A stretch of DNA of 61,941 bases, the filler included, from Nemertoderma westbladi (lineage: Eukaryota > Animalia > Xenacoelomorpha): assembly GCA_032718475.1 (NCBI GenBank). It is 3 parts of 3 records of this genome, joined end to end, with 100 filler letters (N's around TTAATTAATTAA, not from the genome) between each part and the next. Parts side by side here need not be neighbours in the genome. Positions count along the whole stretch, not along the records: positions 1 to 24,792 come from JAUCBJ010008416.1; 2 more parts are not named here. One strand, written 5' to 3'. The position numbers and the translations under genes were made by a program. This document shows, one piece after another, positions 1 through 58,709 of the stretch. The notes beneath the pieces were generated by a model that was not told the DNA's origin, made no database searches, and saw nothing but the letters and a program-made list of their open reading frames with translations. How positions within the stretch are numbered: position 1 is the stretch's first letter; every line of letters begins with the position of its first letter.

Positions 1-1441
1 ATAATTCTTTTTCTCTTTCCTTACTGCTCGTATTCTATTATAAATACGTGACTACAGTAAGATGAAATGTCCGTACTTATTAAAGTACAATAAAGCCACT
101 ACTATATTTAAGTATTATTGGTAGGCAGAGTATTAGGAATGCAAAGTTCAGATCCTCGTGTCTCGGCTAAACCAAGCTCTGGGTAGACCTTGGAAACGAC
201 TTGCCTCTTCACACTGACATTGCTTCGTGCGATATTGCTCTCATACCGTATATTAAATAATACATATAGTAGCGTGATGTCCCTTTAACAGTAGCGTAAA
301 ACGCAAAATAAATCTGTTAAACCCTTTGACCATCTGCAATTCTAGTCGATTAAGATATCGTGGCACCCACCGATATACTTGAAAGACAAATTATAGAATC
401 AGTGGTTAACATCCCCAGACAAGTTCTGGAATAAATCGGTGCCCATCTCAAATATTAATTAGTTAATATTTACAAATCAAATAAATCAAAATCTGTAAAA
501 TTCAGATCCTTCAACAATTCTAGTCAATTAAGATATTGTAGCATTTACCGATATTCTTAAAGAGACAATTTTCTTAGAATTAAGGATCTTGTGTCCCTAG
601 ACAAGTTCTAGAATCAAAATATGTCCATTTAATTATCAAATAATAAAATTTCAGGGAATAAATTTAAATTCATGTCTTTTAATGAATTTAATAAATTGCC
701 ATTTTACGCAATTTATAACATTCCCAAAATTCCATTAATTAATAGATCAAGGGAGCGGAGATTTATATTATTATGCGTATGCGTGTACGAAAGTCTCCCA
801 AACATAGTTAATAGCCGATAAAATTCGTAAAGTCATGTATAAACAGGACATTGACTATTAAAGAATTCCTATTAAATAACATCCCAGATCTGTATGCATT
901 GGAATTACCCTAATTCTACCGCTAGCTTTACATAATGTCACCATAGCAACAACCACGCTAGAATTAGAATTGAGTTAAAAGAACAATAGAAAGCTTGTCC
1001 CATTGAATAGCATAGGGAATAAATAGCGCACTGCTAGTATCCAAGGATACATAATAATACAGTGACATTCTGGAAGGCATTGACTAACGGACAAATGGCC
1101 CGAATGTGCGTAGTTGTGACCAGTTGTGTGGTATTTGTGAGTTTATAGGTGAATGTTACTGCTAAAGTGTGTTTACAGTAGCTAGTCGCAATCGTAAAAA
1201 TAACCTAACTCTCCAAGGAATACTTGAAGTACATCTAAGCCTTTGGGACGGACAGTGGAGTGACTTGTGCCGGTTATCGTTGTCGTTGTACAGCTACGTC
1301 GTTGGCGAAAGTACAGCTACAGCGGTACATCGGCGCTGAGAATCTCCTACTGTCCGGGGGCAAGGGAGAAATAGGCAGCGACGCCCGCTCGCCTAACGAT
1401 ATATAAACTCATTATAATATTGGTGAACTTGTATAGCAGAT

Positions 1442-3298
1442 ATGACTGAATTAATAGAAGATGATCTTGGTATCAGGGAGAGATATACTCTACCTTTACA
1501 AGCGTTTGTCGATAGCTTGATACGCGGCGACGCTGATCCAACTACTACGGAGGACGATGGTCGTTATATCGAACCGCCAATGTCCCAGGAGCAACTTACG
1601 CGTGAATTGGATTATAGAAAGTTCACTGCTCGCTACACGCATCGTAATGGTACGTATATGGACTTCTTGACCACTGGTCATCCTATTGATTTACACGACA
1701 CCGACGATGTAGACACCGAAAGGGAAATGGTTTTGTTTAAATATCATGCCCAGCGGAGTCGAAACGATAAATCGAGAATAGAACACGAGAACTCTATTCG
1801 AAACAAACTCGAAAGAGAAGACGTTGAAGAACCTGATAAACGTAACGGTTTCAACGATTATCTAGAATTCTTACGAGAGACCTATCTCAATGTTGCTAGT
1901 CAACAAAACCTCGAAACTCGATATCCCCAAGGTATGCATCAAGATCCTATAATGGAACTCAAACGGCTCTATTTTACGATGATGTATCTTACCGCCGATC
2001 GACCGCTACCTGTCGTTCCAGACAGCTTCGAACAGATGGAGGAATATTGTAAAACTGGAGAGCGATCACCCGCGTTTCCCCTTCAAGACGTTTGTATACA
2101 GAACCTACATTCATCCGTTATACAAAGACCCCGAATATCTACAGGTTATTCTGTCGTGGAAATACAGACAGTGGGTCCACTTACGGAAACCGACGCACCC
2201 ACTTCGTCTATGCAGCTGGAGGATGAACCAGTATGCTTGGAATCAGAAGCGATTCAACCTACGGCTTCTCGGAGCAGTGACAATGATTATGTCATAGAGT
2301 GGTATCAAGGTCCACAGCGTCTCACAGCGTACGATTATCGACACGCCAACTACGTTTCCCGAAAACGTTGTCGATTATGCGCATCGAGAGACCACTTCAC
2401 TCCTCTAGACTCGAGCGTACCTTGTTCCTATTTCCTCGAACAACCGATGATGGAAATATATTGTGCTTATTGCCGGCTTAATAACTCTCATATATTTGCC
2501 GTCTGCCCACAATTTATGACTCAATGTCACTACTGCCAACTTAAAGGACACGAAAGTTACAATTGTCCCTTTAATCGCGATTTAGAGAGCGTAGACGAGA
2601 TGATCACCCTGCGATACATCCGAGCTTGGGAAGCGAACGCAGATTTACATTGCGAATCCAGACATCGCTATTACCCTGGACGAGCTTACGAGGGAGTTTA
2701 CGCGTTCCATCCTTACCTATTCGCGTCGATTGAACAGAAAACACGCGTACCAAGTTACGAGTTAATAAAGCGTGTTGGTGAGTGTATTTCCACCAAGTTT
2801 GTCAGGAAATACCTTAGAAACGTTAACCCCAATGATATAACCACATATCACCTGATCAATTTTATCCGTCAGGACCCTGAGTATGGCGACATTTTCGTGA
2901 ACTCGCATCCTGAACTCCAGGAAGTATCTCGGCGCCCATATGAATATCGAACCCGAGAACGCGAGCTGGAGAGAACCATTAAACCGAGAAAGTTCCTCAC
3001 CACTCACGGTCCACCCACCGCTAGTGTCCAGACGACCCGTCAAGGACCCGTAGGAGCTGCTGTCCTAAGACGCGCTCTAAAGGCCGTTAGACCTCACTCC
3101 ACTGAGGTTGATATTAATCAACCAGGTACTTCGACCGGCGGGTATACCGATCGTAACCCTGCACCTTCTGATGCAATTATATTGCACCCTTCGCCTAGGA
3201 GCTACAGCCCTCCTCGTAAAGTGGCTCGCCCCAAAGAGAAAATGACTCTTGCTAGCTTTAAAAAACTGCGTAAACGCCGTCCGCGCAAGAAAGACTAA
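1442..3298 (+). CDS. Retrotransposon accessory ORF, 618 aa, three CCHC-type zinc knuckles and basic C-terminus, no obvious TM or signal peptide
   Basis: Intact ORF. Motifs CRLC-x4-H-x9-C, CAYC-x5-H-x4-C and CHYC-x4-H-x4-C at 2369-2566; C-terminal KKLRKRRPRKKD. Homologous copies at 41704-43310 and 52858-53498. Confidence 0.85.
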   Translation: MTELIEDDLGIRERYTLPLQAFVDSLIRGDADPTTTEDDGRYIEPPMSQEQLTRELDYRKFTARYTHRNGTYMDFLTTGHPIDLHDTDDVDTEREMVLFKYHAQRSRNDKSRIEHENSIRNKLEREDVEEPDKRNGFNDYLEFLRETYLNVASQQNLETRYPQGMHQDPIMELKRLYFTMMYLTADRPLPVVPDSFEQMEEYCKTGERSPAFPLQDVCIQNLHSSVIQRPRISTGYSVVEIQTVGPLTETDAPTSSMQLEDEPVCLESEAIQPTASRSSDNDYVIEWYQGPQRLTAYDYRHANYVSRKRCRLCASRDHFTPLDSSVPCSYFLEQPMMEIYCAYCRLNNSHIFAVCPQFMTQCHYCQLKGHESYNCPFNRDLESVDEMITLRYIRAWEANADLHCESRHRYYPGRAYEGVYAFHPYLFASIEQKTRVPSYELIKRVGECISTKFVRKYLRNVNPNDITTYHLINFIRQDPEYGDIFVNSHPELQEVSRRPYEYRTRERELERTIKPRKFLTTHGPPTASVQTTRQGPVGAAVLRRALKAVRPHSTEVDINQPGTSTGGYTDRNPAPSDAIILHPSPRSYSPPRKVARPKEKMTLASFKKLRKRRPRKKD

Positions 3299-3376
3299 CT
3301 GTTTAGAGTATTTTTATATTTTAGAAACTGTGATTTGGTATATTTTATAGACTTAAATCCCATTTTCTGGGAGCGG

Positions 3377-4596
3377 TGTAAAAGCTTTTGTGGGATAACT
3401 GATTCGTTTGCCTTGTTGGCCAGTTCCCCCCCGGTCGCTAGAATACTCTAAAGGGGATCTATAGTTAAAATAGTGCAAGCTACCAGCTTATTGGCTGATT
3501 TGCTGTATGCAGGTATCTGGGCTCTGTTTAATCGGCCAACCAGCCTAAGAAGGTTGCGTCATAGCCTTGTTTTGTATCTCCCAATAGAATTTGAGTTAGC
3601 CTTGATTTTGACCTATCACAGAGCTACTGAACTGAAATTTTCCTATCTCACTGCTCTTTCTCTGTGTTGAACGGGAGCTTCGTGGAATAAGGGTAGTTGG
3701 TATCCTCGTATAGAGCAGTAGTCACGAGTTTTTCAAAGCCACGAAAGAACGGCTTTATAGTGTTTTGTGCTTTTCTGCTTTTTAGCTCAACACTAGTAGG
3801 TTTAATTATAAGGACATATATCCTTTAACTGACATACCGACCAAACTCATGGAATCACTGCAATCACTGCTGACACACGGCTTTTAATAACTGCTGAAAC
3901 TGCTAAAATTACCTGCTCAATCAATACTGTATACTGCTATTTGTTGTCGGTTATTCATTATATTTGTTGATGAATTATTATATTGGAATAACGAGAAATA
4001 ACCCCGACACCCAATATTCTTGATATACCGAAGGTAAGAGAGAAAGGTTACCAATAACGATTGTGACTTATGTTAAAGTGGTTTGAAGTGAATCTAATGT
4101 TATTTGATAGACCCTACATGAGTCAGTCTGTGTTCCTTTTATATGTGACTAAAATCAGTGAAGATTGGCAGATTAGTGTGCAGTATTGTGCAGCATTGTG
4201 TATGAGTGAGTCTGTTAAAGAAGCATTTCCTAAAGAATGCGCCATATATGTGAATTATAATTAAGCCATATCGTTGTGAGTAGTTTAAGTCATAACTCTG
4301 TTTATATAGATAAAGCGCCACGTCCTAAAGGAACTGTTAATATTCCCGAAGGTGAATAATATTGTCAGAGATTATATAATACTGTCAGTCGAATAATACA
4401 TTAGGCTTACATAGCAATAAAATTAAACCGTCGAACCCAATCTCCCGGGAATATCCAGCGGGTGAATGATCGCGCACAGATTGGTTTCGACTAGTGTAGT
4501 GAATCAAATACTTGTCATAGGCTAAAAAGCGATTTAATATCTAGAAGACATCTTAATTTGGCGGGTTAAACTGCCAAAGGTCTGAAAGCGCGAACA
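3377..4596 (+). repeat. 3' LTR of copy A (~1.2 kb)
   Basis: Starts TGTAAAAG right after the PPT and ends GCGAACA. Near-identical to the reverse complement of 51614-52779. TATA-like motif near 3807, AATAAA near 4415. Confidence 0.9.
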
Positions 4597-5000
4597 GCGG
4601 GTCAATGACCTCCAATGCGTTCAAGGAGAGACTAATGAAGTTACGGAACTCGCCCTTGGCTCACTGGAAATCACCTGCCGAAATCCTCTTCGGCCACCAG
4701 ACGCGCACACTGGTCCATGCACACAGCCGCGCATTCCGCTCAGACCATCAGAAAGTCCGCACCCAGTTGGATTCCAAGGTCCCAGAACTCCAAGATAAAG
4801 TGGCAGCCCAATACAATAAGGGCTCCAAGACGCTTGACCCACTGACCGTTGGAAACCCGGTTCACATTCAGAATCCGTCGACCAACCGCTGGGACAAAAC
4901 CGGAAAGATTGTCGAAGTCGGACCAAAGCGTCGGAACATGGTACGAATGGCTTCCGGGCGCGTCCTTCAACGCAACCGCTGGTTCCTTCTGTATGACACC
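4597..5000 (+). mobile_element. Ty3/Gypsy integrase C-terminal fragment interrupted by BEL copy A
   Basis: LRNSP...SPAEILFGHQTRT...YNKGSKTLDPLTVGNPVHIQNP...W..GKIVE...GRVLQRNR matches the Gypsy integrase C-terminal pattern. It begins immediately after the LTR end. Confidence 0.75.
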
Positions 5001-6049
5001 TCGATCATCCAAGGCGGCGAGAAAACTCTACTGCAGAAGCCCTCAGACTCGGCCAACCTTTGTAATATCCTAAATCTAACACACAGTTTTTGTAGTTTGA
5101 TTGAAATTGAAATGATGTCGGACGCTTGGTGTCGGATGTTTGGATTTGCCCACTTATCCATGTTCTTTTATTTGTACTTTGTTGGGAAGCAATGTGAGTA
5201 TTAATATTGGCCTTGTCTTAAACAACATCTCAGCTCTACGAGGGCACGAAAATGAAATAATTTCGTTTACAACTTTTCAAAATATGGCATATTTATTGAA
5301 CCGTACATTTTTTTTATCACATCTTTTTCGAAAACTTTTTATGTGTTGCTAAATATTACAATAATCCTGCCATCAGAAGGTAGAACACCCCATCGCAAAA
5401 AATCATGTTTTGAGTAAATTGACTTAGACTTTGGCGGTTTGGTGTAAGGATCAGCAAATCGTGAGATTTAGACCCGTATATGTTCAGGAAGAGGAAAGAT
5501 TGGAAAAATTTTTGATCAAAAAAATTTTCATTCGCATGGCCTTAAGCACTGAGATAAGAAACATCGGTAGGGTGTTTGGCATATCACAATAATTACAATT
5601 TTCGCAAAGGGTGTTTTTACGGTCGACGAATTGCAATTATTATTAGGGTGTTTTGCATATCACCAATTTACATATGGTGATTTTTATTAATGTGTAATTA
5701 CTTTTGATTACCGGCTGGGGTGAAACATAGGTGTTAATTTATTCCGCATTTATATTTCATTTTTACTATCAAAATTATACCAGAGAAATATGTAGTAAAT
5801 AGTTTTCCAACAAAGAATTAGAAGTTCACTAATAATCTTCTCTTTACAGCCAAACTTGCACTTATATGAGCAACCAGCATCGCGCAATACGTGTTTATGA
5901 GAGTCAAAAATACGTCTATCATCAGGAGATCGACATCTGCTTTGGGCTGGTGTGGCATTACCATGCAAAATCCACTGATTTCGTGGATATGCTAAACTGT
6001 TGGACGATATTATTCTCTCCATCCAGATCATAAACATTATCAAATACTT

Positions 6050-7587
6050 TATAACTCCATCTACCAACACCAACATCACCCCGTTCATCCACACCATCTA
6101 CCTCCAACACCCCATATCCACCCTCTCCATCTACCTCCAACATCACTGTCCACCCACTCCAACTACCTCCAACACCTGTCCACCCATTCCATCTACCTCC
6201 GATATCCCCTGTCCACAAACTCCATCTACCTCCAACATCCCCTGTCCACCCACTCCATCTACCTCCAACATCCCCTGTCCACCCACTCCATCTACCTCCG
6301 ACATCCCCTGTCCACCCATTCCATCTACCTCCAACATCCCTTGTCCACCCACTTCATCTACTTCTGATATCCCCTGTCTACCAAATCTATCTACCTCCAA
6401 CACCTGTCCACCCATTACATCTACCTCCAACATCCCCTGTCCACACACTCCATCTACCTCCGACATCCCCTGTCCACCCACTCCATCTACTTCTGATATC
6501 CCCTGTCTACCCAATCTATCTACCTCCAACACCTCCTGTCCACCCATTCCATCTACCTCCGACATCCCCTGTTCACCCACTCCCATCTACCTCCGACATC
6601 CCCTGTCCACCCACTCCATCTACCTCCGACATCCCCTGTCCACCCACTCCATCTACCTCCAACATCCCCTGTCCACACACTCCATCTACCTCCAACATCC
6701 CCTGTCCACCCACTCCATCTACCTCCAACATCCTCTGTCCACCCACTCCATCTACCTCCGACATCCCCTGTCCACCCATTCCATCTACCTCCAACATCCC
6801 TTGTCCACACACTCCATCTACCTCCGATATCCCCTGTCCACCCACTCCATCTACTTCTGATATCCCCTGTCTACCCAATCTATCTACCTCCAACACCTCC
6901 TGTCCACCCATTCCATCTACCTCCAACATCCCCTGTCCAGGCACTCCCATCTACCTCCGACATCCCCTGTCCACCCACTCCCATCTATCTCCGACATCTC
7001 CTGTCCACCCACTCCATCTACCTCCGACATCCCCTGTCCACCCACTCCATCCTCCGACATCCCCTATCCACCCACTCCATCTACCTCCAACATCGTCTGT
7101 CCACCCACTCCATCTACTTCTGATATCCCCTGTCCACCCAATCCATCTACCTCCAACACCTGTCCACCCATTCCATCTACCTCCAACATCACCTGTCCAC
7201 CCACTCCATCTACTTCTGATATCCCCTGTCCACCCAATCCATCTACTTCCAATACCTGTCCACCCATTCCATCTACCTCCAACATCCCCTATGTCCACAC
7301 ACTCCATCTACCTCCGACATCCCCTGTCCACCCACACCATCTACCTCCAACATCCCCTGTCCACACACTCCATCTACCTCCGACATCCCCTGTCCACCCA
7401 CTCCATCTACCTCCGACATCCCCTGTCCACACATTCCATCTACCTCCAACATCCCCTGTCCACCCAATCTATCTACCTCCAACACCTGTATACCCAATCT
7501 ATCTACCTCCAACACCTCCTGTCCACTCATTCCATCTACCTCCAACATCACCTGTCCACCCACTCCATTTACCTCCGACATCTCCAG
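6050..7587. repeat. ~33-bp C-rich minisatellite (CCATCTACCTCCAACATCCCCTGTCCACCCACT)n, ~45 units
   Basis: Directly visible tandem array with 30-34 bp variants. It generates spurious repetitive ORFs on both strands. Confidence 0.95.
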
Positions 7588-7779
7588 CTATAAAGGATTA
7601 GTAGAAGAACATATGCTGAAAATTTCATGCAATTTGGTGCTGTAGTTCCAAAGAAACAGGTACATGGGTGAAAAATAAAAAACAAAACATAAAATTCTGA
7701 GATAACGGCATTTAAAATTTTTAAACCTTCCCGCCATTTTTTGTTAAATGGAGGGATAATTCAATTTATATTGAAAAAA

Positions 7780-18375: not shown

Positions 18376-18760
18376 TAAACAATATATTAAATAAAGGGTA
18401 GTTGTATGGGAATTATTATATTTGCGATACTTCGGGTATAAACTGAAAGCTTACTGCAGAGTGCTGGTGGATATTTACTGGCGTATGGTTAATCATATTG
18501 CGCATTGCATGGTGCTAAATAACCATTTTGGTGATTAAATGGCTAATTTGGTTTGGTAGACTAGAAAGCCAGTAAGCTGGTTATAAGAAGACCGTCTATA
18601 AGACAACAAAACCGAAAAAACTAAATCTTAATTCCGTTTCTGTGTTAGTCCGAAGCGAAAAGATGAACAAATATTTAACCATATCCAATCCTGGCATCAC
18701 TATGAAGCAACCAATTTAAAATAAGCATAATAATAATATGCATGTATCCTAATAATAATA

Positions 18761-25255: not shown

Positions 25256-26495
25256 TGTTCGCGCTTTCAGACCTTTGGCAGTTTAACCCACCAAATTAAG
25301 ATGTCTTCTAGATATTAAATCTGCTTTTAGTCTATGACAAGTATTTGATTCACTACACTAGTCGAAACCAATCCGTGCGCGACCATTCACCCGCTGGATA
25401 TTCCCGGGAGATTGGGTTCGACGGTTTAATTTTTATTGCTATGTAAGCCTAATGTATTATTCGACTGACAGTATTATATAATCTCTGACAATATTATTCA
25501 CCTTCGGTAATATTAACAGTTCCTTTAGGACGTGGCGCTTTATCTATATAAACAGAGTTATGACTTAAACTACTCGCAACGATATGGCTTAATTATAATT
25601 CACATATATGGCGCATTCTTTAGGAATTGCTTCTTTAACAGACTCACTCATACACAATGCTGCACAATACTGCACACTAATCTGCCAATCTTCACTGATT
25701 TTAGTCACATATAAAAGGAACACAGACTGAATCATGTAGGGTCTATCAAATAACATTAGATTCACTTCAAACCACTTTAACATAAGTCACAATCGTTTAT
25801 TTGTAACCCTTCTCTCTTACCTTCGGTATATCAAGAATATTGGGTTTAGGGGTTGTTTATCGTTATTCCAAATATAATTATTCATCAACCATATTATGAA
25901 GAACTGACGGTAAATAGCAGTATAAAACAACAATGAAAACACTGATTGTTATGAGTTTGCAATGTTTCAGCAGTCAGCATGTATGATCAGTCAGCAGTCA
26001 TCAGGTATGTAGTCCGCAGTTAAAGGATATGCCCTTTATAATTAAACCTACTAGTGTACGACTAAAAGCAGTACAGCACAAAATACTTCCAAGCCGTTCT
26101 TTCTTTGGCTCAAGACTGAATGTAAACACTGCACATAGGCATTGCGTCATTTCTCGGAAATTTTCTGTACAAGGAGCCACAAAAACGCTCTCATTGGCTG
26201 ACTGAACTGAGAGACGCCGTAGAACAAAGGAAATCAACACGTATGAATGTCAGCTGTTAACCGTAGTCATAGTAACTACTGTTCAAGAGTAGCTATCACC
26301 CCTTTGCGTCACGAATTGCCATAGAATCACAAAATATGCCTTTCACAGTACACATACGGAGGAAATAGGTCTTAGATCCTCTAAAAACACCGATACAGCA
26401 ATAATACGGTCTCTTACACTTATTAAATCAACTACAGAGTATTTTAATGTAAAAGATAATAAAAATAACGGGGCAATTCAGCAAAGGCTTTTACA
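25256..26495 (-). mobile_element. Solo LTR of the BEL family, chimeric
   Basis: TGT...ACA ends. 25256-~26100 matches copies A/C while 26100-26495 resembles copy B U3. No adjacent PBS or PPT. Confidence 0.85.
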
Positions 26496-40430: not shown

Positions 40431-41625
40431 TGTTCGCGCTTTTAGACCTTTAGCAGTTTAACCTGCCAAATTTAGGTGTCTTCCAGGTTATAAATCGACT
40501 TTAGCCTATAACAAGTATTTGATACACATAAAGTTACATTAGCCGAAGCCAGCCTATGCGCGATCATTCACCCACGGTTAAGGGAGACTGGACTTGGATG
40601 CTCTGACCTTATTGCGGTGTAGGCCTACTGTATTATTCGATTGATCGTTAATATATAATCTCTGACAAATATTATTCACTTTCGGGAAATATTAACAGTT
40701 CCTTTAGGACGTGGCGCTCTAAGTATGTAAACAGAGTTATGACTTACACTAAACACAACGGGATGGCTTATGATTTACGTATAAGTCGCATTCTTTAGGA
40801 AATGCTTTGTTATCTATCACACTCATGCACACTACCGCACACTGCTGCACGCTGATCTGCCGACCTTCACTAATTTTAATCATATATAAGGAGAACAGCA
40901 ACTGACACATGTAGGGTCTATGAAATAGCATTCAATTCACTCCAAAACCACTATAATGTAAGTCGCAATTGCTATATGTAACCGGTCTCTCTAACCTTCA
41001 GTATATCAAGAAGATTGGGGTTTTCTGATTATTTATCGATATTCTCCAAATATAACAATATTCCATCAAATGATAACACTTAATAACCGACAGTAAATAG
41101 CAGTAAAATAATGCGGTGTTTGTATGTGATCAGGTTTGTATGAGATATGACAGGCTGATTTGCCAGTTTGATAACAGTTATACGTTTCTATGATCAAAGC
41201 CGTTCTAATGTTTGGCTAAAGTCTGAAACACATAATAATTGCACAGCCGATCTTCTGGGCTCAGGAAAAAAGGTAAACAAAGACCATAATGCATTGCGCG
41301 ATTTCCCAGAGGCCTCTGTGCAAGTAAAATGAAAATCGTTCTGATTGGTCGAGTGAGTGAGCCTGAACAAAGAAAGCCAAAAGCTACACGTTGACATATC
41401 AGCTGATAGATGTCGTAATCTGAACTACACTGTATTAAGAGTATTTTATTGCATTGCGGCATAAAATTGCTAGTTATGTCCGCTAAAGTACACATACAGA
41501 AGAAATGGCTTTTTATGTCCACTAAAACACCTGTACAGTAAGGAAACAGCTTTTTATGTCCGCTAAAACACCTACAGAGTACTTTGCGGGAAAAATAACC
41601 AGCTAAATCCGCAAAAGCCTTTACA
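40431..41625 (-). repeat. 3' LTR of copy B (divergent variant)
   Basis: TGTAAAGG...GCGAACA on the minus strand, preceded by the same PPT as copy A. Confidence 0.88.
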
Positions 41626-41703: not shown

Positions 41704-43310
41704 TTAGTGTTTCTTGCACGGACAGCGTTTACGCAGTTTTTTGAGGCTAGCAAGAGTCCTTTTTTCTTTGGGGGGAGCCACTTTACTAGGATGGCTATAA
41801 CTCCTGGGTGAAGGGTGCAATACAAATGCATCGGAAGGTTTAGGGTTATGGTCGGTGTATCCGCCGGTCAAGGTACCCGGTTGATCAGTATCAACCTCAG
41901 TGGAACGAGGTCGAACAACCTTGAGAGCACGTTTTAAGACAGCAGCTCTTACTGGTCCCTGACGGGTCGTTTGCACGAGAGCGGTAGCTGGACCATGTGT
42001 AGTGAGAAATTTCCTCGGTTTGATGATTCTTTCCAACTCGCGTTCTCGGGCTCTATCGGAATCGATATGCTTCTCCTCGAGCTGATTTTCCTCCGCTTGT
42101 CGTTGAAAACATTTGTCCAAACTCTTGCAGAAAGTAGAGTCGTCCAAGTTCGATATCTTCTTATAGATTTTGGATTTCCTGATCAAACTGAGATAAAGCT
42201 AATTCGTTTACCGCTTGGACTTGCTGCTGCAATTTACGTTTCTCTAAACATTGTAGGTTCCTTTTTACCGCTTGGACTTGCTGCTGCAATTTACGTTTCT
42301 CTAAACATTGTAGGTTCCTTTTCCGATCTTTTGACGAATAGTGTCCAACGCGTTTCGTACAACTCTCTCCTCCACCTCGGGGACAGGTTGTATCGGGTTA
42401 AACCGGGACGATGATACGGTTGAATGGCGATATTAGATGTCCACGTCCTAATCCGACTAGGTAAGATGGGCGAATATTTAGGGAGCCCACAACCGGAGTG
42501 CCACCGACTAATTGTTCGGGTAACACTAGATCTTTGAACAGTGAGTACAGTTCGGGAGGATCCGTGATACTATTAGGATCAAGATTCTGAGGTCTCACTA
42601 GGGAGTGAGGAGGTCTGACCGAGTATTCCGGAACTCTGATCATAGGTTTATTTAAGAATCGTTTGAGTCGAGCGAGCGTAGGTGATACATCGAACAAGTT
42701 TCGCTCGAAACTCCCGTAAATATAACGAGTAAAACTGTGTTTAGAACAACGTCTCCGCGGATGTTTATGTCTTTCCGTTTGTTGGTTGGGTCTTGGGCAT
42801 TCATCGCAATAATACCAAAGACGCACGTCTTGTAGGGGAAACGCGGGTGATATTTATTCGGTTTTACAATGTTTCTCTCAAGACTTCCAAATATACATTG
42901 GAGTTACCGCATTTATCCTGTTCTTTGACGTCTTCTCTTTCGAGTCGATTTCGAATAGAAATTTCGCATTCAATTTTTAGTTTATCGTTCCGACTCCGCT
43001 GGGTAGGATATTTAAATAGTACCATTTCCCTTTCGGTGTCAACATAGTCCGTATCGTGTAAATCGATAGGATGGCCAGTAGTTAAGAAGTCCATATACGT
43101 ACCATTACGATGCGTATAGCGAGCGGTGAATTTTCTATAGTCCAATTCACGCGTAAGTTGCTCCTGGGACATCGGCAGTTCGATATAATGACCATCGTCC
43201 TCCGTAGTAGTTGAACTAGCGTCGCCGCGTATCAAGCTATCAACAAACGCTTGTAAAGGTAGAGTATATCGCTCCCTGATACCAAGATCATCTTCTATCA
43301 ACTCAGTCAT
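41704..43310 (-). pseudogene. Degenerate accessory ORF of copy B with a different central module
   Basis: The N-terminus (MTELIEDDLGIRERY…) and C-terminus (RERELER…KKLRKR) match the 618-aa ORF. The middle is unrelated and carries stops and a 57-bp duplication. Confidence 0.85.
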
Positions 43311-45016
43311 AGCTGCTATATGAGTTTATCAATATTATAATGAGTTTATAATTAGGCTAGAGGGCGTCGCTGCCTACCCCTCACGGCCCCCAGACAGCGC
43401 AAGATCCTCAGCGCTGATGCACTGCCGCCGCTGTGCTTATCGCCAACATAGTAGCTGCACAACGACAACAACAACCAGCGCGAGTCACCCCACTGTCCGT
43501 CCCAAGGGCTAAGATTTACTTCAGGTTCTTACTGCAGAGTTAGGGCTACTTTCACAATTGCGACTCGCTACTGTAAACACACTTTAGTAGTAACATTCAC
43601 CTATAAACGCACAAATTCCACATAACTGTCACAAACCGCACACATTCGGGCCATTTGTCCGTTAGTCAAGTGCCTTCCAGAATGCCACGTTATTATTGGG
43701 TATCCTTGGATACTAGCAGTGTGCTATTTATTCCTTATGCTATTCAATGGGGCAAGCTTTATTGTTCTTTTAACTCACTTCTAATTCTAGCGTGGTTGTT
43801 GCCATGGTGACATTATGGAAAGCTAGCAGTAGAATTAGGGTAATTCTCATGCATACAGATCTGGGATGCTATTTAATAGTAATTCTTTAATTGTCAATAT
43901 TCCTCTTTATACATGATTTTATGAATTTTATCGGCTATTGACTATATATTGGAGATTCTCGCACACTAATATACTTAATAGGGTGAATCTCCGCTCCCAT
44001 GATCTATTAATTAATGGAATTTTGGGAATGTTATAAATTGTATAAAAATGACAATTTATCAAATTCATTAAAAGATATGAATTTAAATTTATTCCCATAA
44101 ATTTTATTATTTAATATTAAATAGACACAATTTTATTCCAGAGCATGTCTGGGGACTAGGATCCTGAATTCTAGGAAATTTGTCCTTTTAAGAGTATCGG
44201 TAAGTGCTACGATATCTTAATCGACTAGAATTTTAAAGGATCTAAATTTTAACAGATTTTGATTTATAGATTTTCTAGAGTTAACTTGTAAGTATTTACT
44301 CTATTGTATTTGTTTGACAGATTTTATAAATATTAATAGTTAATATTTAAGATGAGCACCGGTTTATTCCAGAACATGTCTGGGGACGTTAACCACTGAT
44401 TCCAGAATTTTGTCTTTTAAGTATATCGGTGGGTGCCGCGATATCTTAATCGACTAGAATTACAGATGGTCAAAGGGTTTAACAGATTTATTTTGCGTTT
44501 TACGCTACTGTTAAAGGGACATCACGCTACTATATGTATTATTTAATATACGGTATGAGAGCAATATTGCAAGAAGCAATGTCAGTGAGAAGAGGCAAGT
44601 CGTTTCCAAGGTCTACCCAGAGCTTGGTTTAGCCGAGACACGAGGATCTGAATATTGCATTCCTAATACTCTACTTACCAATAATACTTGAATATAGTAG
44701 GAGCTTTATTGTACTTTAATAAGTACGGACATTTCATCTTACTGTAGTCACGTATTTATAATGCAATACGGACAGTAAGGAAAGAGAAAAATAATTATTT
44801 CTCGCCGTCGCACTAAATATATAATATATAAGTAATTAAGTAATAAACGAGAATATATATATTGCACTAATCTACTAAATAATCGCTAAAATAACATTCT
44901 ACTAAATAAAATTAAAGAAAACGATTATAATAAAATTACATAATAATACATACATAAGTATAAAATAATAAAAGCAAATATAAAATAATATAGTCACACA
45001 CCCACTCCAGACACTG

Positions 45017-48000
45017 TTACGTTGGGGAGTCCCTAGATGTTTGTTGGATTAGGGAGGTGGTCGTGGGAAGAGTATCTTGCCTTCCATAGTTTCCGAAGAG
45101 TTCTCTGTCTCTTTCCAGTAAACATATACGACCAACTGGGCGATTGAGCTGCTGCGTCTCGAAGACAATTCCTGGTTTCTTAAAGTTACGCCGCATGACG
45201 ACGAGTTCTACCGATCGCACCAAACCATCATCCGAGATATGAGTCTCGATGATACGACCTGTCTGCTACCGCTTACGTGGAAGATCTGAATCCACAATAA
45301 GGACCATGTCTCCGGGGCTGACGTTTTCTTGCTGCGCAAACCACTTAGTTCGAAGTTGTAGCGTAGGCAGATAATGTTTTTCGAAATGGTCAGCGAAATG
45401 ACGGGATAACAACTGCATAAGTTGCCAAGTTTGCCGGCAGTATTCGTCTCCGTCCGTGATTTCCGATCGTGGGAGCATGGCTACAGGTTTCTTCAGTAGG
45501 AAGTGCGCAGGTGTTAGCGCTTCCAGGGAATCGGGACTCGATGAGACTGGCATAAGCGGTCTCTCGTTGAGATAGGCGGCGATTTCCTCCATTAACGTCC
45601 GCAAAAGTTCGTCGGTGAGATACGCGCGGCACGGCACTATAAAGTGAAATGCGGTCTTCACGCTCCTGATTAATCTCTCCCAACTTCCTCCCCACCAAGG
45701 GGCGTCGGCGGCATTGAAGGTCCAGCTAGACGCTGTTATCCTTAGCTGATCGTCCACCTGTCTTTGGTTCCAATCTTTGACGTAAGCCTTGATTTCATTG
45801 TTGGCACCAATGAAGTTCGTTCCCTTATCAGATCTCATCGTGTTACTAGTTCCAAAGCGAGCGATCTGTCGGCGTAAGCTCAATATGAAGCTATTGGTAG
45901 ATAAATCGTTCACCATATCGAGATGGATAGCTCTACAAGTCATACAGACAAAGATGACACACCATCTCTTGACTATAGTCCTAGCACGATATACTTCAAT
46001 AGGGCCAAATAAATCCACACCGGTATTAGTAAAGGGTGGTTCATAGAAGCTTACTCGTTCCCTAGGTAATTCTGCCTCTCGCTGTGTTAAAGGCCTACTG
46101 AATGCTTTCCTACAGGGTATGCAGTTCCTAAGAACTTGGTTCAGAGCTCTACGGGGTTTATAAAAATAATAGCGAGTTCGAATTTCGCTAAGAACTCGTT
46201 CTCTACCAGCATGATAAAGCTTACTGTGAACATCTACAATCATCTTGATTTGTATTTCAAGATTTCTAATGAGTATGGGAAACTTAGTGTCAAAGGATAA
46301 TGGAGCATTAGTTAGTCTTCCTCCAACACGTATTAACCCATCTATCATTGTGCTAGAGAAACGATCCCTTAAGCGCATCTGTGGATTTCTCAACAACAGG
46401 AAATACTTATCGGAATCCTCATAGCATTGCAGGAGTCTCAGTATCTGCTTATTGGTTTCTTCATGCTCCTGGTAACTGATCTTCTCCTTCAGAAACCTGT
46501 CGGATATCTTGTATTTGGGAAGATCTTTAACAACATGGACCTGCGCAGATGTCAGTGGAGCGGTATCACTAGTGGTCTTCGTCCTGGAGTAGTGATGATG
46601 AAAACATCGCTTTAAATAAGCAACTGCCTTACAGAGCCGATTCCAGGAACTATAGTGATGTATCTCTCTCTGCAGGAGAGGTGAGAGTCCTTGCGAGACG
46701 TCTGGTGTTCCAGATTTCCAATCTCTCTCTCTGATTTCCACAACAGACTTATTTGTGGCTGGGGGTTTTGGATCCAAAGCGTCGTCTCCGGAAGTGTGTA
46801 GTACAGACAGATCTATCACGGGTTTAAATAATTTCGATTTACTCGCCCGGGTTTTAGGTTTGACTTTCTCCACTCCCTTGGCTTGTCTAATCTCCGCCGT
46901 AGTAAGATGAGGAGGCCATTCATCCTCTTCTTTGCTTAGGAAGTCGGGTCCACCTAACCAGTCTGGAGTATCTATCAGTTCTTGCGGAGTTGCTCCCCTG
47001 GAGGCGATGTCGGCTGGATTAATCGTCCCGGGGCAATGTCTCCATTGATCTATCTTCGTGCGACTAAGTATAATGGCTACTTTGTTGGTAACGAAGACAC
47101 TGAACTGACAGACTTCATTGGTTATATACTCCAACACGAGAAAAGCATCGGTCCAATAGACAGTTTTCTCCAGTGGATAGTCGATCTGTTCTGTTACATT
47201 CCGGCCGATGGCTGTAGCGTATAGAGCCGCTTTTAACTCCGCTCGAGGAACTTTCAACTTGTTGTTTATCAAGGCCTTAGAGGTAACCAAGGCGACCTTA
47301 ATTCCATCCGGAGTTTCATCTCTCAGGTAGGCTACTATACCTATTCCCATATCGCTGGCGTCTCCAAACACATGGAGTTGATAGGAATACGTAGGGAGAA
47401 CATGACCAAAATATGAACGGGAAATTATAAAGTTCTCGATGGATGGTAACGAATCTTCCCATTTCATCCACTTCTTTAATAGTTCTCCCTTAAGTGGATC
47501 GTCCCATGAGTGGTTTTCAAGCCACATTTGTTGTACTAAACTCCGAGCAATCGAAATCCACCTCTTTTCAAGCACTCTACAGTTCCTTTGGAGACATCAA
47601 TGGCTTCTTCCACCGATGGGAGGGACTTTAAATTGTCGTCCATGTATATATCCCGTTTGATGTTGTCGGTAACCTCTTTGGAGAAGGCGTCCCGGTTGTC
47701 ATCAGCAGTGGTACGCACTACTGAGCAGGCGTTTGAAGGGCTCGAGATGATCCCAAAAGCCTGAATGGTCATCCAGTACTCCACCGGTTTCTGGTTGAGG
47801 TCTCCCTCCGGCCACCACAGAAATCGTAGGCTGTCTCGATCTCTATCCAGTGCCTTAACTTGTAAGAACATGCCTTCTATATCGGAGGCAAAAGCGATTG
47901 AATATTGTCGTAATCTTAAGAGTATTCCCAACAAGGATTGGAGTAAGTTGGGTCCTGGCAACAACTCGGAATTAAGGTATTGGCCCATGTAGAGGGCGGA

Positions 48001-51000
48001 GCCGTCAAATACTACCCGGACTTCATTGGGTTTACCAGGTTTGGGAACGTAATGATGTGTGAGATAGTATGTTCTCTCAGTTATGGGTGTTTCTTCCGGT
48101 ACTCGCTCCGCATATCCCTTGTCAATAAATTTCTTCAACTGAGTCTTGTACATTTCCTTAGCTGAAGCATTTGCCGTAAGGCGTCGATGTAGTTGCGCAA
48201 TTCTTTTCTCCGCCAAGGGTCGGTTGTTTATAAATTTAGGTTCTCGCTTTCGAAATGGCAGACCAATTTCATATCTACCTTGATCTTTAAGAAAACGTGT
48301 AGTCGTTTCCTGGATCTGCTTGGCTCTTTCTTCTTCTACCGATAGGGCCTTATCGTAGGAATTGGGCTCTACAGCCTCTTGAGTAAAGAATCGTACGGCG
48401 TGTTCATCGCGAGTCTTCGCGTTGTAGCGATCTATCACTTCATTCAGTTCGTCGTTGTATTCGACTTGTTCAGCTGGATGAATGAGGTGACATAGGTTCA
48501 CTTGGTTTTGCCAAGTTTCGTTTTCCGTAAGGAGGTCGATGGTCTTCTCCTCGTCGAAGAGTTGGTGGATGTCGTCATTATCTGAGGAGTATGGTGTTCC
48601 ATCAGTTGTGTCGTCTACCTCACTGAACTCTTATTCCCATTCACTTACCTGGTAGACCCTTTCTTTGGGTAACCTTTCCATGAGAGTTCTACGGGAAGGG
48701 CCAGTAAAGTACCAACCTACTCTAGTTCTTCCCGCATAGGTTTGTAGTGGTTGCGGTTGAGCAGGCCGTTTCTCCAATGTCTCAAGCGCCTCATGCGCAT
48801 TTTGGCCGATGAGTATTTGCACTCCAGGGTAGTCTGTGTTGAATCTAGGTATCTTATGCTGCTGGGTGAAATTGTCCTCATCCCAGTTATAAGGTTCCAC
48901 TTGGCTGGTAGCGAAGTTCTTTATTGCCACCATTTTTACTGACCTTATGCTGTGTTCTCCTAGTTCATCCTGGGGGGTGGACATCGCACCTACATAATAA
49001 TCTGCAATTACTGTAGATTTCCAAACCTGCATAATTCCTGACATGTTTAACTTAGTTCGGAACTTGGGTTGTCCAGCAAAGATGTCTTCGGCTAGTTCTT
49101 TGTCGATGAATGTTCCTGTGCTGCCGGAGTCAAGGAGGGCGTTCACTATATAGCTTTTTTCTGGCCCGTGGACTCTCAACTGCACCACGGGAAATTCTCG
49201 GATTCCTACATTGGAAGTTGGTGCTTTCCAAGATGGTTGTCGGTCAGAAGTAGTTAGGGGGAGCTCGCTGTCGGTGTCCTTTTCATACGTAAGTGCTCGA
49301 TATACTGCGGTATTTATCATGTAACAGGATTCGTCTTCGTCGGAAAATTCGTCCGTATAGAATCCTTCCATCTCAGAACTTTGGTCAGTGTCGTTCACAT
49401 CACTGAATTGGACATGTAGTTCGGAATCACTTACCTGACTCAGGCTGTTTCGTTCGAATTCAGTGTGCAACAAGCTATGATGTTTCGCGCCACACTTTGC
49501 ACACCTTGCGTCGGAGTAACAGGTTCGCCATTGGTGTCCTTGTCTGAGGCAATTATAACACAACCGCTTATCCCACATGACTTCATGTCTATCTTTTAGT
49601 GATTTCTTTAAAAATTTATCACACACACTTAAACGGTGGGGCCCGTCGCATAGCGCACATTTTGGTTTGATGTTACTCACCTTACCTTGGGTAACGTTGT
49701 GCACTCTCGTTCTTTCCTCGGGCTTTCTTCCGTGAACCTTATTAGGAGACGTAGGAGGAGTTTTTGTTACCTGTTCTCTCCTGTCATTGGTTCGAGACTT
49801 AAATTTACTTACGTCTTTAGGCGCTTTGTTGACATAGTAAGATCTTTCAGTGTCTTTCCCTCTGTCCTCTTCGCTTTCGCCGGCTTTCGCCGTCGTCTGT
49901 ATAACACACTGGTGTTACCTTTCTCCTAGAAATGGGTTTCTCACTTACCTTATTTTCTGGTGTCTTCTCTCCGGACTGCTTTAGGAGCTGTAATTTTACC
50001 TCTCCATCTAAGAATGACATGAGATCAGCCATGGTAGGGTCTCTTCGTTGTTGTTCCATCATATATAACACTTTCTTATCCCAGCGTGTACCTACTCCAC
50101 CCTTTGGTAAAGTAGAGGCCATGGCTCCAATAACCATAGAACTCTGATATTCATGAGACTTACCTAGCCAATCTAATTGTCTACAGATCTCCTGAATCTC
50201 ATCGGAAAACTCTATAATCCCACTGCTAATGAACTTTCGGGGCGCTACCAATTTTGCATACAAATACCTAGCTATGTTATTCCTATTACCATACCTGAAG
50301 TTTAGTGTATCCTAAACTTGTCTTAATCCATCTGGATGTCAAATAAACTTTAACGCCATTAACTTGGGAGATCCTTCCAAGCACTCGATGAGGAATCTAA
50401 GTTTCTCTCCGTTAGATAGTACAGAGTTCTGTATGTTATCTTTATAATATTCATTAAAAGGTAACCATTTCATCTCATCTCCATTGAACTTGACGATCTC
50501 TCCCACCTTTACCGCCTGACGGGCTTCGGTTCTAGCCATTTGACGCGTAAAACTTTCTTGGGCCATCGTGTTATTTAATATCGAGTTATCGGTATATAAA
50601 TTTCTCGGATTATGATCAGGTCTATATGGAATATCATTGTCAACAGGTTTATAATTACCCTTAATAGGGTTTACTATAGGAGTTTCTACTTCACTAGTAG
50701 TATAGATGCGTGTAGGCTCCACACCTTGCGCATGAAATACTTCAGACCTAACAGGTTAACACATTGTTACAGGGGGTGGTGGTATACCCCTTTGTGTATT
50801 TACTAATTTATCGCGTTCTAGCGCGATACTCTGCTGCACTTCTTGCAACTCTAACCTACTTTCCCTTACTGTTCCCTTAAACTGTTGAACAGTCTCCTGC
50901 ATCTGCCCGAGCAGGAGATTCATCCCCCGCCGCCCCTCATCCACCCACTCGACCGCCAAAGTGGGAGCCGCCAACATAGTAGCGGGTAGACGAGGGACAA

Positions 51001-51613
51001 CGGGCGACAAATCATTGATATTTCGCTCGGAGTCCAGGACAGGAACTGTCTCAGGGGCGGTTCTGTTGGGCACAGGTAGTTTAGTGCTGTGCAAAGGGAA
51101 TTTAGAGGTAGGTTCTGGGAGTACAGGTGTCTCTATCACCGAAGGGGTGGCTTCGAGAACAGGCCTAATTATTTCAGGTTCATCTACTATAGTAGGGAGT
51201 CTTTCTACTCTAATAATTTGGTCTGTAGGTTCTGTACTACCTAAGTCTGTGCTAGCTAGTTGCCTTCTCACAGCTGGGGGCAAATCAGGCAATTTCTGAC
51301 GGTGGAGCATTCTTCTACGCCTGCTGAGACGAGATCTATTTCCTCCGCCTTCAGGATCTGTTGTATCGCCTTCATCCGATGATGTAAAGCCCTGTCGCTT
51401 GGGGGTGGATCGACTTATCAGCTGCATTTGACTAGCTGTTATCTATTTATTGAAGTTGTCTTGCTTCTCTTGAAGATTTTCCAACTCTTGTTGGGCTGCC
51501 TCTTCAGATGCCCTCCGTTCTGCTTCTGCCACTGCTGCTGCCGCTTTTGCCTCTGCCACTGCCGCTTTTCTTTCCGCTTCTACTGCTGCAGCTGCCGCTT
51601 GCCTTTTCACTTC
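45017..51613 (-). pseudogene. BEL/Pao gag-pol polyprotein, disrupted
   Basis: DUF1759-like KFNGDEMKW, BEL triple knuckle CALC..H..C/CYNC..H..C/CAKC..HH..LH, protease LLDSGS, RT VRVVFDGSA/YMDD, RNase H LHVFGDAS, integrase H..H..C..C/GVDLFGP. Several stops and frameshifts. Confidence 0.95.
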
Positions 51614-53498
51614 TGTTCGCGCTTTCAGACCTTTGGCAGTTTAACCCGCCAAATTAAGATGTCTTCTAGATATTAAATCGCCTTTTAGCCTATGACAAGT
51701 ATTTGATTCACTACACTAGTCGAAACCAATCTGTGCGCGATCATTCACCCGCTGGATATTCCCGGGAGATTGGGTTCGACGGTTTAATTTTATTGCTATG
51801 TAAGCCTAATGTATTATTCGACTGACAGTATTATATAATCTCTGACAATATTATTCACCTTCGGGAATATTAACAGTTCCTTTAGGACGTGGCGCTTTAT
51901 CTATATAAACAGAGTTATGACTTAAACTACTCACAACGATATGGCTTAATTATAATTCACATATATGGCGCATTCTTTAGGAATTGCTTCTTTAACAGAC
52001 TCACTCATACACAATGCTGCACAATACTGCACACTAATCTGCCAATCTTCACTGATTTTAGTCACATATAAAAGGAACACAGACTGACTCATGTAGGGTC
52101 TATCAAATAACATTAGATTCACTTCAAACCACTTTAACATAAGTCACAATCGTTATAGGTAACCTTTCTCTCTTACCTTCGGTATATCAAGAATATTGGG
52201 TTTTCGGGGTTATTTCTCGTTATTCCAATATAATAATTCATCAACAAATATAATGAATAACCGACAACAAATAGCAGTATACAGTATTGATTGAGCAGGT
52301 AATTTTTAGCAGAGTTCGTCAGATAGTTAAAGGATATATGTCCTTATAATTAAACCTACTAGTGATGGGCTAAAAGCAGAAAAGCACAAAACACTACAAA
52401 GCCGTTCTTTCGTGGCTTTGAAAAACTCGTGACTACTACTCTATACGAGGATACCAACTACCCTTATTCCACGAAGCTCCCGTTCAACACAGAGAAAGAG
52501 CAGTGAGATAGGAAAATTTCAGTTCAGTAGCTCTGTGATAGGACAAAATCAAGGCTAACTCAAATTCTATTGGGAGATACAAAAAACAAGGCTATGACGC
52601 AACCTTCCTAGGCTGGTTGGCCGATTAAACAGAGCCCAGATACCTGCGTACAGCAAATCAGCCAATAAGCTGGTAGCTTGCACTATTTTAGCTATAGATC
52701 CCCTTTAGAGTATTCTAGCGACCGGGGGGGAACTGGCCAGCAAAGCAAACGAACCAGTTATACCACAAAAGCTTTTACACCGCTCCCAGAAAATGGGATT
52801 TAAGTCTATAAAATATACAAAATCACAGTTTCTAAAATATAAAAATACTCTAAACAGTTAGTCTTTCTTGCGCGGACGGCGTTTACGCAGTTTTTTAAAG
52901 CTAGCAAGAGTCATTTTCTCTTTGGGGCGAGCCACTTTACGAGGAGGGCTGTAGCTCCTAGGCGAAGGGTGCAATATAATTGCATCAGAAGGTGCAGGGT
53001 TACGATCGGTATACCCGCCGGTCGAAGTACCTGGTTGATTAATATCAACCTCAGTGGAGCGAGATCTAACGGCCTTTAGAGCGCGTCTCAGTACAGCAGC
53101 TCCTACGGGTCCTTGACGGGTCGTCTGGACACTAGCGGTGGGTGGACCGTGAGTGGTGAGGAACTTTCTCGGTTTAATGGTTCTCTCCAGCTCGCGTTCT
53201 CGGGTTCGATATTCATATGGGCGCCGAGATACTTCCTGGAGTTCAGGATGCGAGTTCACGAAAATGTCGCCATACTCAGGGTCCTGACGGATAAAATTGA
53301 TGAGGTGATATGTGGTTATATCATTAGGGTTGTCATTTCTAAGGTATTTTCTGACAAACTTGGTGGAAATACACTCACCAACACGCTTTATTAACTCGTA
53401 ACTTGGTACGCGTGTTTTCTGTTCAATCGACGCGAATAGGTAAGGATGGAACGCGTAAACTCCCTCGTAAGCTCGTCCAGGGTAATAGCGATGTCTGG
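51614..53498 (-). mobile_element. BEL/Pao copy C, 3' part (accessory ORF C-terminal portion, PPT, LTR 51614-52779), nested in gag of copy B
   Basis: Near-identical to the reverse complement of copy A 2658-4596. The LTR end abuts gag coding sequence (EVKRQAAAAAVE…) and the copy is truncated by the contig gap. Confidence 0.9.
52858..53498 (-). CDS. Accessory ORF of copy C, partial (5' end in gap)
   Basis: Open in-frame match to the C-terminal third of ORF 1442-3298. Confidence 0.75.

Positions 53499-58526: not shown

Positions 58527-58709
<183 letters not shown>

What the first reader, a model, noticed from the sequence alone, without database searches (positions are those of the whole stretch)
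1442..3298. BEL/Pao family carries a non-env accessory ORF with tandem zinc knuckles and a basic NLS-like tail
Seen: an intact 618-aa ORF sits in the env position (after pol and a spacer, just before the PPT and 3' LTR), with homologues in all three copies. It has three CCHC-like knuckles, a K/R-rich end, and no apparent signal peptide or TM helix. Known: extra ORFs described in BEL elements (roo, Cer, Tas) are typically env-like glycoproteins, and gag here already has its own knuckles. Inference: this is a nuclear nucleic-acid-binding accessory protein, such as a transactivator, RNA chaperone/export factor or silencing suppressor, in a complex retrovirus-like architecture.
Basis: partly seen in the sequence, partly recalled or inferred. 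Interest (0 to 1): 0.85.

Follow-up and report, generated by a model that had tools for sequence, protein, structure and literature searches.

The report
Rev-like third gene in BEL/Pao retrotransposon
An abundant retrovirus-like jumping gene of an animal carries, where an envelope gene would sit, a conserved gene for a non-membrane zinc-knuckle protein, preceded by a predicted RNA hairpin whose pairing is kept between diverged copies; the protein likely binds the element's own RNA in the nucleus to get it exported, as HIV Rev does.

Summary
The 618-aa ORF (1442-3298) is real. It lies between the pol-side spacer and the polypurine tract/3' LTR of a high-copy, divergent BEL/Pao family. It is under purifying selection (dN/dS 0.14-0.19 in three comparisons; 19 of 21 listed variants at third codon positions), has no membrane helix, and ends in a basic tail. 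The knuckles occur in only one of three window copies. One copy is cut by an assembly gap. The other has a different, also multi-copy, middle segment and a different LTR U3. The knuckles do not resemble the element's Gag. They form a module (three knuckles plus a following segment) shared with one unnamed protein among 1.84 billion, which also sits before an LTR-like stretch. New: a 43-bp sense-strand hairpin (1249-1356, z -5.7) lies just upstream; 13 of 14 changed pairs are kept between subfamilies. Best reading: a Rev/CERV-like export factor for unspliced genomic RNA (about 40%). Rivals are an LTR transactivator/anti-silencer and an RNA-decay shield. Expression, splicing, localisation and binding are untested. 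Non-env third genes are known in Gypsy elements; my searches found none described for BEL/Pao. The scan noted knuckle third genes in Gypsy elements of other genomes.

The parts
1..1441 (+). Non-coding spacer between pol and ORF3 (copy A, cut by the window start); AT-rich and more structured as RNA than ORF or LTR
   Evidence: 86% identical to the copy C spacer that follows pol; folding z-scores of 9 spacer windows average -1.7, against -0.5 for 12 ORF and -0.1 for 8 LTR windows (means of the values)
1249..1356 (+). Predicted 43-bp RNA hairpin on the sense strand; candidate response element (inferred)
   Evidence: z -5.7 sense, -1.5 antisense; 13 of 14 changed pairs kept in copy C, 3 compensatory, P 0.0012 or 0.035 by two nulls
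1400..1439 (+). TATA-like box (1400-1407) and tandem AG (1434-1439): internal promoter or splice acceptor for a subgenomic mRNA, not told apart
   Evidence: seen in copies A and C; not more conserved than the spacer around it
1442..3298 (+). ORF3, 618 aa, intact
1442..2092 (+). ORF3 N-terminal part (res 1-217), acidic, shared by both subfamilies; no family match
   Evidence: dN/dS 0.15 over res 1-133; no Pfam hit
2369..2713 (+). Triple zinc-knuckle module with following segment (res 310-424)
   Evidence: shared with P0001; profile's best PDB hits are Lin28 and Air2 knuckles, E 0.0015-0.09
3260..3292 (+). Basic C-terminal tail (res 607-617), NLS-like (inferred)
   Evidence: basic in all three copies
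3369..3376 (+). Polypurine tract
   Evidence: same 8 bases before the LTRs of copies A, B and C
3377..4596 (+). 3' LTR of copy A (A-type U3)
   Evidence: 98.5% identical to LTR B; 78% over aligned columns to LTR C, U3 parts barely alignable
51614..53498 (-). Copy B: ORF3 res 407-618, PPT and LTR (52779-51614); cut by an N gap; appears nested in the gag of copy C
45017..51612 (-). Copy C gag-pol (BEL/Pao), interrupted by stops and frame changes
   Evidence: Peptidase_A17 E 2.9e-22, DUF5641, Integrase_H2C2; DUF1759 below cut-off; Pao-type triple Cys-His box
41704..43310 (-). Copy C ORF3: broken; shared ends, unrelated multi-copy middle (about 42825-42056)
43391..43499 (-). Hairpin counterpart in copy C
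40431..41625 (-). 3' LTR of copy C (C-type U3)
25256..26495 (-). Solo LTR of the family; its 5' U3 aligns with the C type; no target-site duplication seen

Best explanation
This BEL/Pao family carries a conserved, non-membrane third gene in the env position whose zinc-knuckle protein likely enters the nucleus, likely binds a predicted hairpin found upstream in the element's own full-length RNA, and would thereby get that unspliced RNA exported and protected, as Rev does for HIV and CERV for Cer1. Shown: the gene is intact, part of the element, under purifying selection, lacks env features, and carries a knuckle module unlike the element's Gag and a basic tail; the hairpin's pairing is kept between two subfamilies. 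Inferred, step by step: (1) ORF3 is made from a subgenomic mRNA that begins or is spliced in at 1400-1439, so the hairpin at 1249-1356 is present only in genomic RNA; (2) the basic tail imports the protein; (3) the knuckle module binds the hairpin or the structured spacer; (4) the shared N-terminal part recruits host export machinery or multimerises; (5) the variable middle sets RNA specificity per subfamily.
For: Selection: dN/dS 0.15 (res 1-133, A vs C), 0.19 (res 503-617, A vs C), 0.14 (res 407-618, A vs B); Fisher p 1e-9, 6e-9, 0.004. Of 40 variant rows shown (713 not shown), 21 fall in the ORF; 19 are at codon position 3 and 16 are synonymous (p 7e-5 or less). None of the 12 indel rows shown lies in the ORF. 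0 of 14 contig pieces inside the ORF have gaps, against 9 of 12 in non-coding element parts (p 7e-5; flank and straddling pieces left out). That includes pieces 13-20% diverged over the knuckles. Integral: 42,020 contigs of run X1 lie on window 1-4800; summed depth is 1e5-1.7e6 across spacer, ORF and LTR and 68 beyond the LTR (not a copy number). RNA-type knuckles: the profile's best PDB hits are Lin28, Air2 and retroviral nucleocapsids; Atlas neighbours are CCHC/Air2/CNBP-like, scores up to 0.87, leads only. Not a Gag duplicate: best E 0.25 against the element's own Gag. Hairpin: strand-specific, 13 of 14 changed pairs kept. [quoted passage not shown]
Against: No expression, splicing, localisation or binding data. 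No detectable homology to Rev or CERV: one hit only in the 1.84-billion search, none in PDB. NES-like motifs number 3 against 5.7 expected by chance. The hairpin test rests on two sequences; the stricter null gives P 0.035, and copy C alone folds at z -1.5. The knuckles are absent from the C-type subfamily, which has the same hairpin: awkward if the knuckles are its ligand. The middle of ORF3 changes together with U3, which fits a DNA target in the LTR as well. The TATA-like box and AG are not more conserved than the spacer.
Confidence: 0.4

Rival explanations
1. ORF3 is a family-specific transactivator or anti-silencing factor (foamy-virus Tas-like or VANC-like in logic) whose variable middle recognises a cognate site in the LTR U3.
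For: Copies A and B share the A-type middle (as far as B is visible) and A-type U3 (98.5%); copy C has another middle and another U3 while the flanks stay 78-86% identical. Acidic N-terminus and basic tail. VANC proteins act only on their own family through short motifs (PMC6719617 passages).
Against: Only two subfamily types are seen in linkage. U3 varies fast anyway: the solo LTR is a mosaic, and several U3 joints appear. CCHC knuckles usually bind single-stranded nucleic acid (general knowledge). No motif occurs more than 4 times in either U3.
Confidence: 0.25
2. ORF3 shields element RNA from host RNA surveillance (piRNA, exosome/TRAMP or uridylation pathways) as a knuckle decoy or adaptor, akin in logic to the exonuclease ORF3s of rotifer LTR elements.
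For: Nearest knuckles are Air2 and Lin28. In P0001 two copies of the module follow an N-terminal domain that looks by eye like a degenerate DEDDy exonuclease (recalled pattern). DEDDy ORF3s are described in rotifers (PMC5408684).
Against: The P0001 N-terminus has no exonuclease hit in Pfam or PDB. ORF3 itself has no nuclease domain. The Air2/Lin28 hits are weak and may reflect Cys/His spacing only.
Confidence: 0.17
3. ORF3 is a second nucleocapsid-like chaperone that is packaged into particles and helps RNA dimerisation, reverse transcription or nuclear import of the cDNA.
For: Knuckles plus basic tail; weak hits to retroviral nucleocapsids.
Against: Gag has its own full triple Cys-His box. 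ORF3 is large, separately encoded, and one subfamily lacks the knuckles.
Confidence: 0.1
4. ORF3 is a diverged env/fusogen, or a neutral passenger inserted in a few copies.
For: Env position; known third genes of BEL/Pao are env-like (PMC8742986; PMC13524379 passages).
Against: No hydrophobic segment, 2 sequons, 9 of 14 Cys in knuckles; no glycoprotein family; strong purifying selection and family-wide presence.
Confidence: 0.03

Closest known systems
CERV of Cer1 (C. elegans Ty3/Gypsy; Sun et al. 2023, PMC10309623)
   Same: Large non-env ORF between pol and 3' LTR; candidate basic NLS; Cys-rich putative zinc finger; no homologues outside its lineage; similar size (517 aa).
   Different: Cer1 is Gypsy, this is BEL/Pao. 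CERV is spliced and shares N-terminal exons with Gag; ORF3 has its own ATG behind an in-frame stop. CERV has a possible C4 finger and a G-protein-like domain; ORF3 has CCHC-type knuckles. No homology detected. CERV's function is shown; ORF3's is inferred.
Env-carrying Belpaoviridae (roo F-type, Tas/Cer7, Atlas, mosquito chuvirus-gB BEL elements)
   Same: gag-pol-ORF3-PPT-LTR layout in a BEL/Pao backbone.
   Different: ORF3 here lacks signal peptide and TM features and is no glycoprotein. The visible parts imply an element of about 12.5 kb or more, above the 4.2-10 kb of the ICTV profile.
Non-env ORF3s (DEDDy exonuclease, GDSL esterase) of bdelloid Juno/Vesta elements (Rodriguez et al. 2017, PMC5408684)
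   Same: Family-specific, modular non-env third genes, shared between unrelated retroelements.
   Different: Those are Gypsy-like elements with enzymatic ORF3s. ORF3 here shows no enzyme domain.
HIV Rev/RRE (as described in PMC10309623 section 15)
   Same: Works-like model: an accessory nuclear protein plus a structured RNA element in unspliced RNA.
   Different: Rev is small with an arginine-rich RNA-binding helix and a real NES (recalled). No sequence relation; no NES excess here.
P0001 (unnamed, 633 aa, contig FAOW01000007.1 = L001)
   Same: Same triple-knuckle spacing in knuckles 2-3 and a similar following segment (p 2e-4 for that segment alone against the second repeat). Followed by a purine tract, a TG-started 1.1-kb AT-rich stretch with AATAAA, a PBS-like TGG and an open acidic ORF: the look of a collapsed LTR element.
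   Different: Two modules instead of one; another N-terminus; no basic tail. No pol on the 3.7-kb contig, so its element class and even its LTR nature are unproven. The first repeat's following segment is not significant alone (p 0.26).

Membership tests
BEL/Pao (Belpaoviridae) | Gag triple Cys-His box CX2CX3-4HX4C, CX2CX2-4HX4-5C, CX2-4CX3HX4H (PMC554778) | tested here: met
   Copy C gag has CX2CX3HX4C, CX2CX4HX4C, CX2CX3HX4H with the HH doublet
BEL/Pao (Belpaoviridae) | pol order PR-RT-RH-IN with Pao-type domains | tested here: met
   LLDSG protease, YMDD RT, DAS RNase H, H2C2 integrase, Peptidase_A17, DUF5641; all 120 listed of 183 homologues carry PF05380, best 34% identity
BEL/Pao (Belpaoviridae) | LTRs of 0.2-1.2 kb (TG...CA) with a PPT of about 10 nt before the 3' LTR | tested here: met
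   LTRs of 1220, 1166 and 1195 bp, each behind the same 8-nt purine tract
BEL/Pao (Belpaoviridae) | tRNA-Arg/Gly primer-binding site after the 5' LTR; paired LTRs and target-site duplication | not testable with these tools
   No 5' end of any copy is in the window and no genome is held
BEL/Pao (Belpaoviridae) | Genome of 4.2-10 kb; third gene, if any, env-like (ICTV profile) | tested here: not met
   Visible parts add to about 12.5 kb or more with two LTRs; the third gene is not env-like. This is a descriptive range rather than a demarcation criterion.
Env/fusogen ORF3 | Signal peptide, C-terminal TM anchor, glycoprotein family match | tested here: not met
   Highest hydropathy window 0.59; no such Pfam or PDB hit. 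Dedicated predictors were not available.
CERV family | Sequence or fold homology to CERV (H, M, G domains) | tested here: inconclusive
   No CERV-like hit, but CERV's presence in that library is not known; the single-sequence model was unusable (pLDDT 35.8)
CERV/Rev-like export factor (works like) | Made from a subgenomic mRNA; nuclear; needed for export of unspliced RNA | not testable with these tools
   Only motifs and the hairpin
DEDDy exonuclease ORF3 | DEDDy nuclease domain | tested here: not met
   No Pfam or PDB hit for ORF3

The most novel reading that the evidence does not exclude
A BEL/Pao lineage has independently evolved a complex-retrovirus-style regulatory pair: a Rev-like knuckle protein and an RRE-like hairpin. 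The RNA-binding middle of the protein is a swappable cassette that changes together with LTR U3 between subfamilies, and the same knuckle module travels between unrelated LTR elements as an unrecognised accessory-domain family.
Probability: 0.25. Interest if true: 0.8.

Novelty: new variant of a known kind. Interest (0 to 1): 0.62.

Why it matters
Described third genes of BEL/Pao elements are envelope-like, and the ICTV profile calls their replication poorly understood. A selected, non-env regulatory gene with a candidate RNA target would extend the Rev/CERV strategy to a third family of reverse-transcribing elements, by convergence. It gives a testable protein-RNA pair for how LTR elements get unspliced RNA past nuclear surveillance in a germline. 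The alternative middles offer a natural experiment on how such specificity evolves, and the knuckle module appears to be an undescribed domain.

Tried and rejected
No genome is held, so no genome-wide copy survey. Word-index protein search with ORF3: 0 hits among 1839 candidates of 339-1082 aa; with P0001 res 290-633: itself only, of 796 candidates. No ORF3 relative in metagenome contigs, viral contigs or phage records; none for P0001 or the module alignment in viral contigs. PHROGs: nothing below E 0.06. Single-sequence AlphaFold models of ORF3 and P0001 were unusable (pLDDT 35.8 and 32.7), so no fold search was run. Atlas structure search was not possible. Expression: no RNA holder listed; X4 is only guessed to be RNA and holds the genomic flank of the solo LTR, so it says nothing on expression. 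Rfam on 1-4800: one chance-level hit, mir-23, E 0.14. NES motifs: not above chance. ORF3 knuckles as a Gag duplicate: rejected. Homology between the A-type and C-type middles: none in six frames or in DNA (p 0.11-1.0). Coding status of the C-type middle is unresolved. It is multi-copy (4,891 contigs in X1), and one frame has 3 stops against 14.5 expected (P 3e-4 for that frame), but the 40 listed variants do not favour that frame (synonymous in 14 of 40; 18 of 40 in another frame with 10 stops). No target-site duplication found at the solo LTR. Host not identified beyond an animal (SF3B1 match). Literature: searches returned no description of a non-env ORF3 in BEL/Pao. The tool cannot search the slash spelling, most subscription journals are missing, Repbase/GyDB/Dfam were not searchable, and no supplements were read. 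I recall, without a call, a putative small accessory ORF reported for Cer7 in addition to env; one search did not return that paper.

Full report
Setting. The window is animal DNA (intronless SF3B1 at 12263-16282 matches human SF3B1), rich in satellites. It holds four pieces of one LTR family. Copy A (1-4596, +): spacer, ORF3, PPT, LTR. Copy B (53498-51614, -): the end of ORF3, PPT and LTR, cut by an N gap and apparently nested in the gag of copy C. Copy C (51612-40431, -): broken gag-pol, spacer, broken ORF3, LTR. The fourth piece is a solo LTR (26495-25256). Gag has the Pao-type triple Cys-His box described in PMC554778 (passages; motifs). Pol hits Peptidase_A17, DUF5641 and Integrase_H2C2. 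Its best homologue among 183 hits is 34% identical, and the top named hits are from fish, a barnacle and a tunicate. This is a divergent BEL/Pao lineage; I did not place it in a named clade.

Observation. The 618-aa ORF, its position, the three Cys/His arrays, the basic tail and the lack of a hydrophobic segment are all there. Only the third array is canonical. The claim of homologues in three copies holds for the ends of the protein only: copy C has an unrelated middle (about 770 nt in place of residues 218-502), and copy B's upstream part is hidden.

Is it a functional gene of the element? Yes. dN/dS is 0.15 and 0.19 for the two segments shared by A and C, and 0.14 for A against B. In four public runs, 19 of the 21 listed variants inside the ORF are at third positions and 16 are synonymous; these come from the 40 best-supported rows, with 713 not shown. 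None of 14 listed contig pieces inside the ORF has a gap, against 9 of 12 in non-coding parts. Pieces 13-20% diverged span the knuckle region without gaps, which is the only selection evidence for that region itself. Summed contig depth stays at 1e5 to 1.7e6 along spacer, ORF and LTR and falls to 68 past the LTR end in X1. The tool warns that this is no copy number, and X1 may be the source sample. The knuckle-bearing middle and the A-type U3 show roughly five- to ten-fold lower depth than the ORF ends at 80% likeness, which fits subfamily-specific parts. The C-type middle is multi-copy too; whether it codes is unresolved.

What is the protein? It has no family. A search of 1.84 billion representatives gave one hit, P0001, E 6e-4. 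P0001 has two copies of a module that aligns with ORF3 residues 310-424: three knuckles, conserved spacing between the second and third, then a segment with further invariant residues. The match is more than Cys/His spacing. With C and H fixed, shuffles give p 3e-4 and 0.016 for the two repeats; the post-knuckle segment alone gives p 2e-4 for the second repeat and 0.26 for the first. These p-values are post hoc, for a pair picked by a large search. A profile of the module hits Lin28, Air2 and nucleocapsid knuckles weakly and does not resemble the element's own Gag. P0001's contig (L001) reads ORF, purine tract, TG-started AT-rich 1.1 kb with AATAAA, CA and a PBS-like TGG, then an open acidic ORF. 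That is how a collapsed LTR element looks, but no pol is on it, so this is a lead.

A cis partner. Scanning 30 windows of copy A gave the strongest folding signal at 1201-1380 (z -4.3). Refolding gave a 43-bp hairpin at 1249-1356, z -5.7, with 0 of 200 shuffles as stable, and only z -1.5 on the other strand. Using the structure from A alone, copy C changes 14 pairs and keeps 13, three by double changes (P 0.0012 with a transition-matched null, 0.035 with a base-matched null). Copy C alone is not significant (z -1.5). The whole spacer folds better than ORF or LTR in A, and several spacer windows of C do as well. About 45 nt downstream lie a TATA-like box and a tandem AG, then the ATG. With either an internal promoter or a splice acceptor there, the hairpin would be in genomic RNA and not in the ORF3 message. 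That is the geometry of a response element (inference).

Mechanism. The best-supported reading is a Rev/CERV-like factor (40%). [quoted passage not shown] Against it: no NES excess, no homology, no expression data, and the C subfamily keeps the hairpin without these knuckles. The main rival is a U3-directed transactivator or anti-silencer (25%), because middle and U3 differ together between subfamilies; VANC is the precedent (PMC6719617 passages). An RNA-surveillance shield (17%) and a second nucleocapsid (10%) follow. Env or a neutral passenger is all but excluded.

Novelty. The ICTV profile (PMC8742986, whole text) lists only gag, pol and env for Belpaoviridae. Passages of PMC3118150, PMC13524379 and PMC2774666 mention only env-like extras for BEL/Pao. 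Non-env ORF3s are known from Gypsy-type elements: CERV, rotifer DEDDy/GDSL genes (PMC5408684, parts 1-2 of 5) and sORFs (PMC11952523 passages). Eight searches found no BEL/Pao case, within a library that lacks most subscription papers; repeat databases and supplements were not seen. Earlier scan notes report knuckle or exonuclease third genes in Gypsy elements of other genomes and nothing on this sequence; they are unchecked leads. Verdict: a new variant of a known kind, with a new domain and a candidate RNA target; interest 0.62.

Noticed in passing
window 12263-16282 (-): Intact, intronless SF3B1 (1339 aa) inside repeat-rich DNA; a retrocopy or a naturally intronless gene.
   Followed up: partly
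window 22097-23107 (+): Intronless 336-aa ORF with a 3CxxC zinc ribbon (PF13695, E 7.6e-16), RTP/ZAR1-like by recall.
   Followed up: partly
window 4597-5060 (+): Copy A's LTR is followed by a multi-copy fragment that looks like the integrase end of another LTR element (recalled Gypsy-type pattern; no Pfam support), so copy A may be nested too.
   Followed up: no
window 18757-19673, 35214-35930, 30107-30684: Long palindromes or inverted-repeat elements, MITE/foldback-like.
   Followed up: no
window 6144-7651, 33104-33460, 36874-38700, 58637-59349: Satellite arrays with 33-, 17-, 44- and 31-bp units.
   Followed up: no
window 310-651 and 44097-44489: Degenerate tandem duplication (period about 200-230 bp) in the spacer; the unit at 301-480 folds at z -3.1.
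   Followed up: partly
window 42056-42880 (-): Contigs show further variant segments in the C-type middle (loose ends at 42141 and 42246, joints), suggesting more than two middle types; a 57-nt tandem duplication lies at 42207-42322.
   Followed up: partly
L001 124-780: The P0001 N-terminal domain resembles by eye a degenerate DEDDy exonuclease; no Pfam or PDB support.
   Followed up: partly
window 39540-40022 (-): 160-aa ORF that reads like the C-terminal end of a non-LTR retroelement protein (recalled; not searched).
   Followed up: no
window 31475-31972 (-): 165-aa ORF with several hydrophobic segments, probably a host membrane protein; not searched.
   Followed up: no
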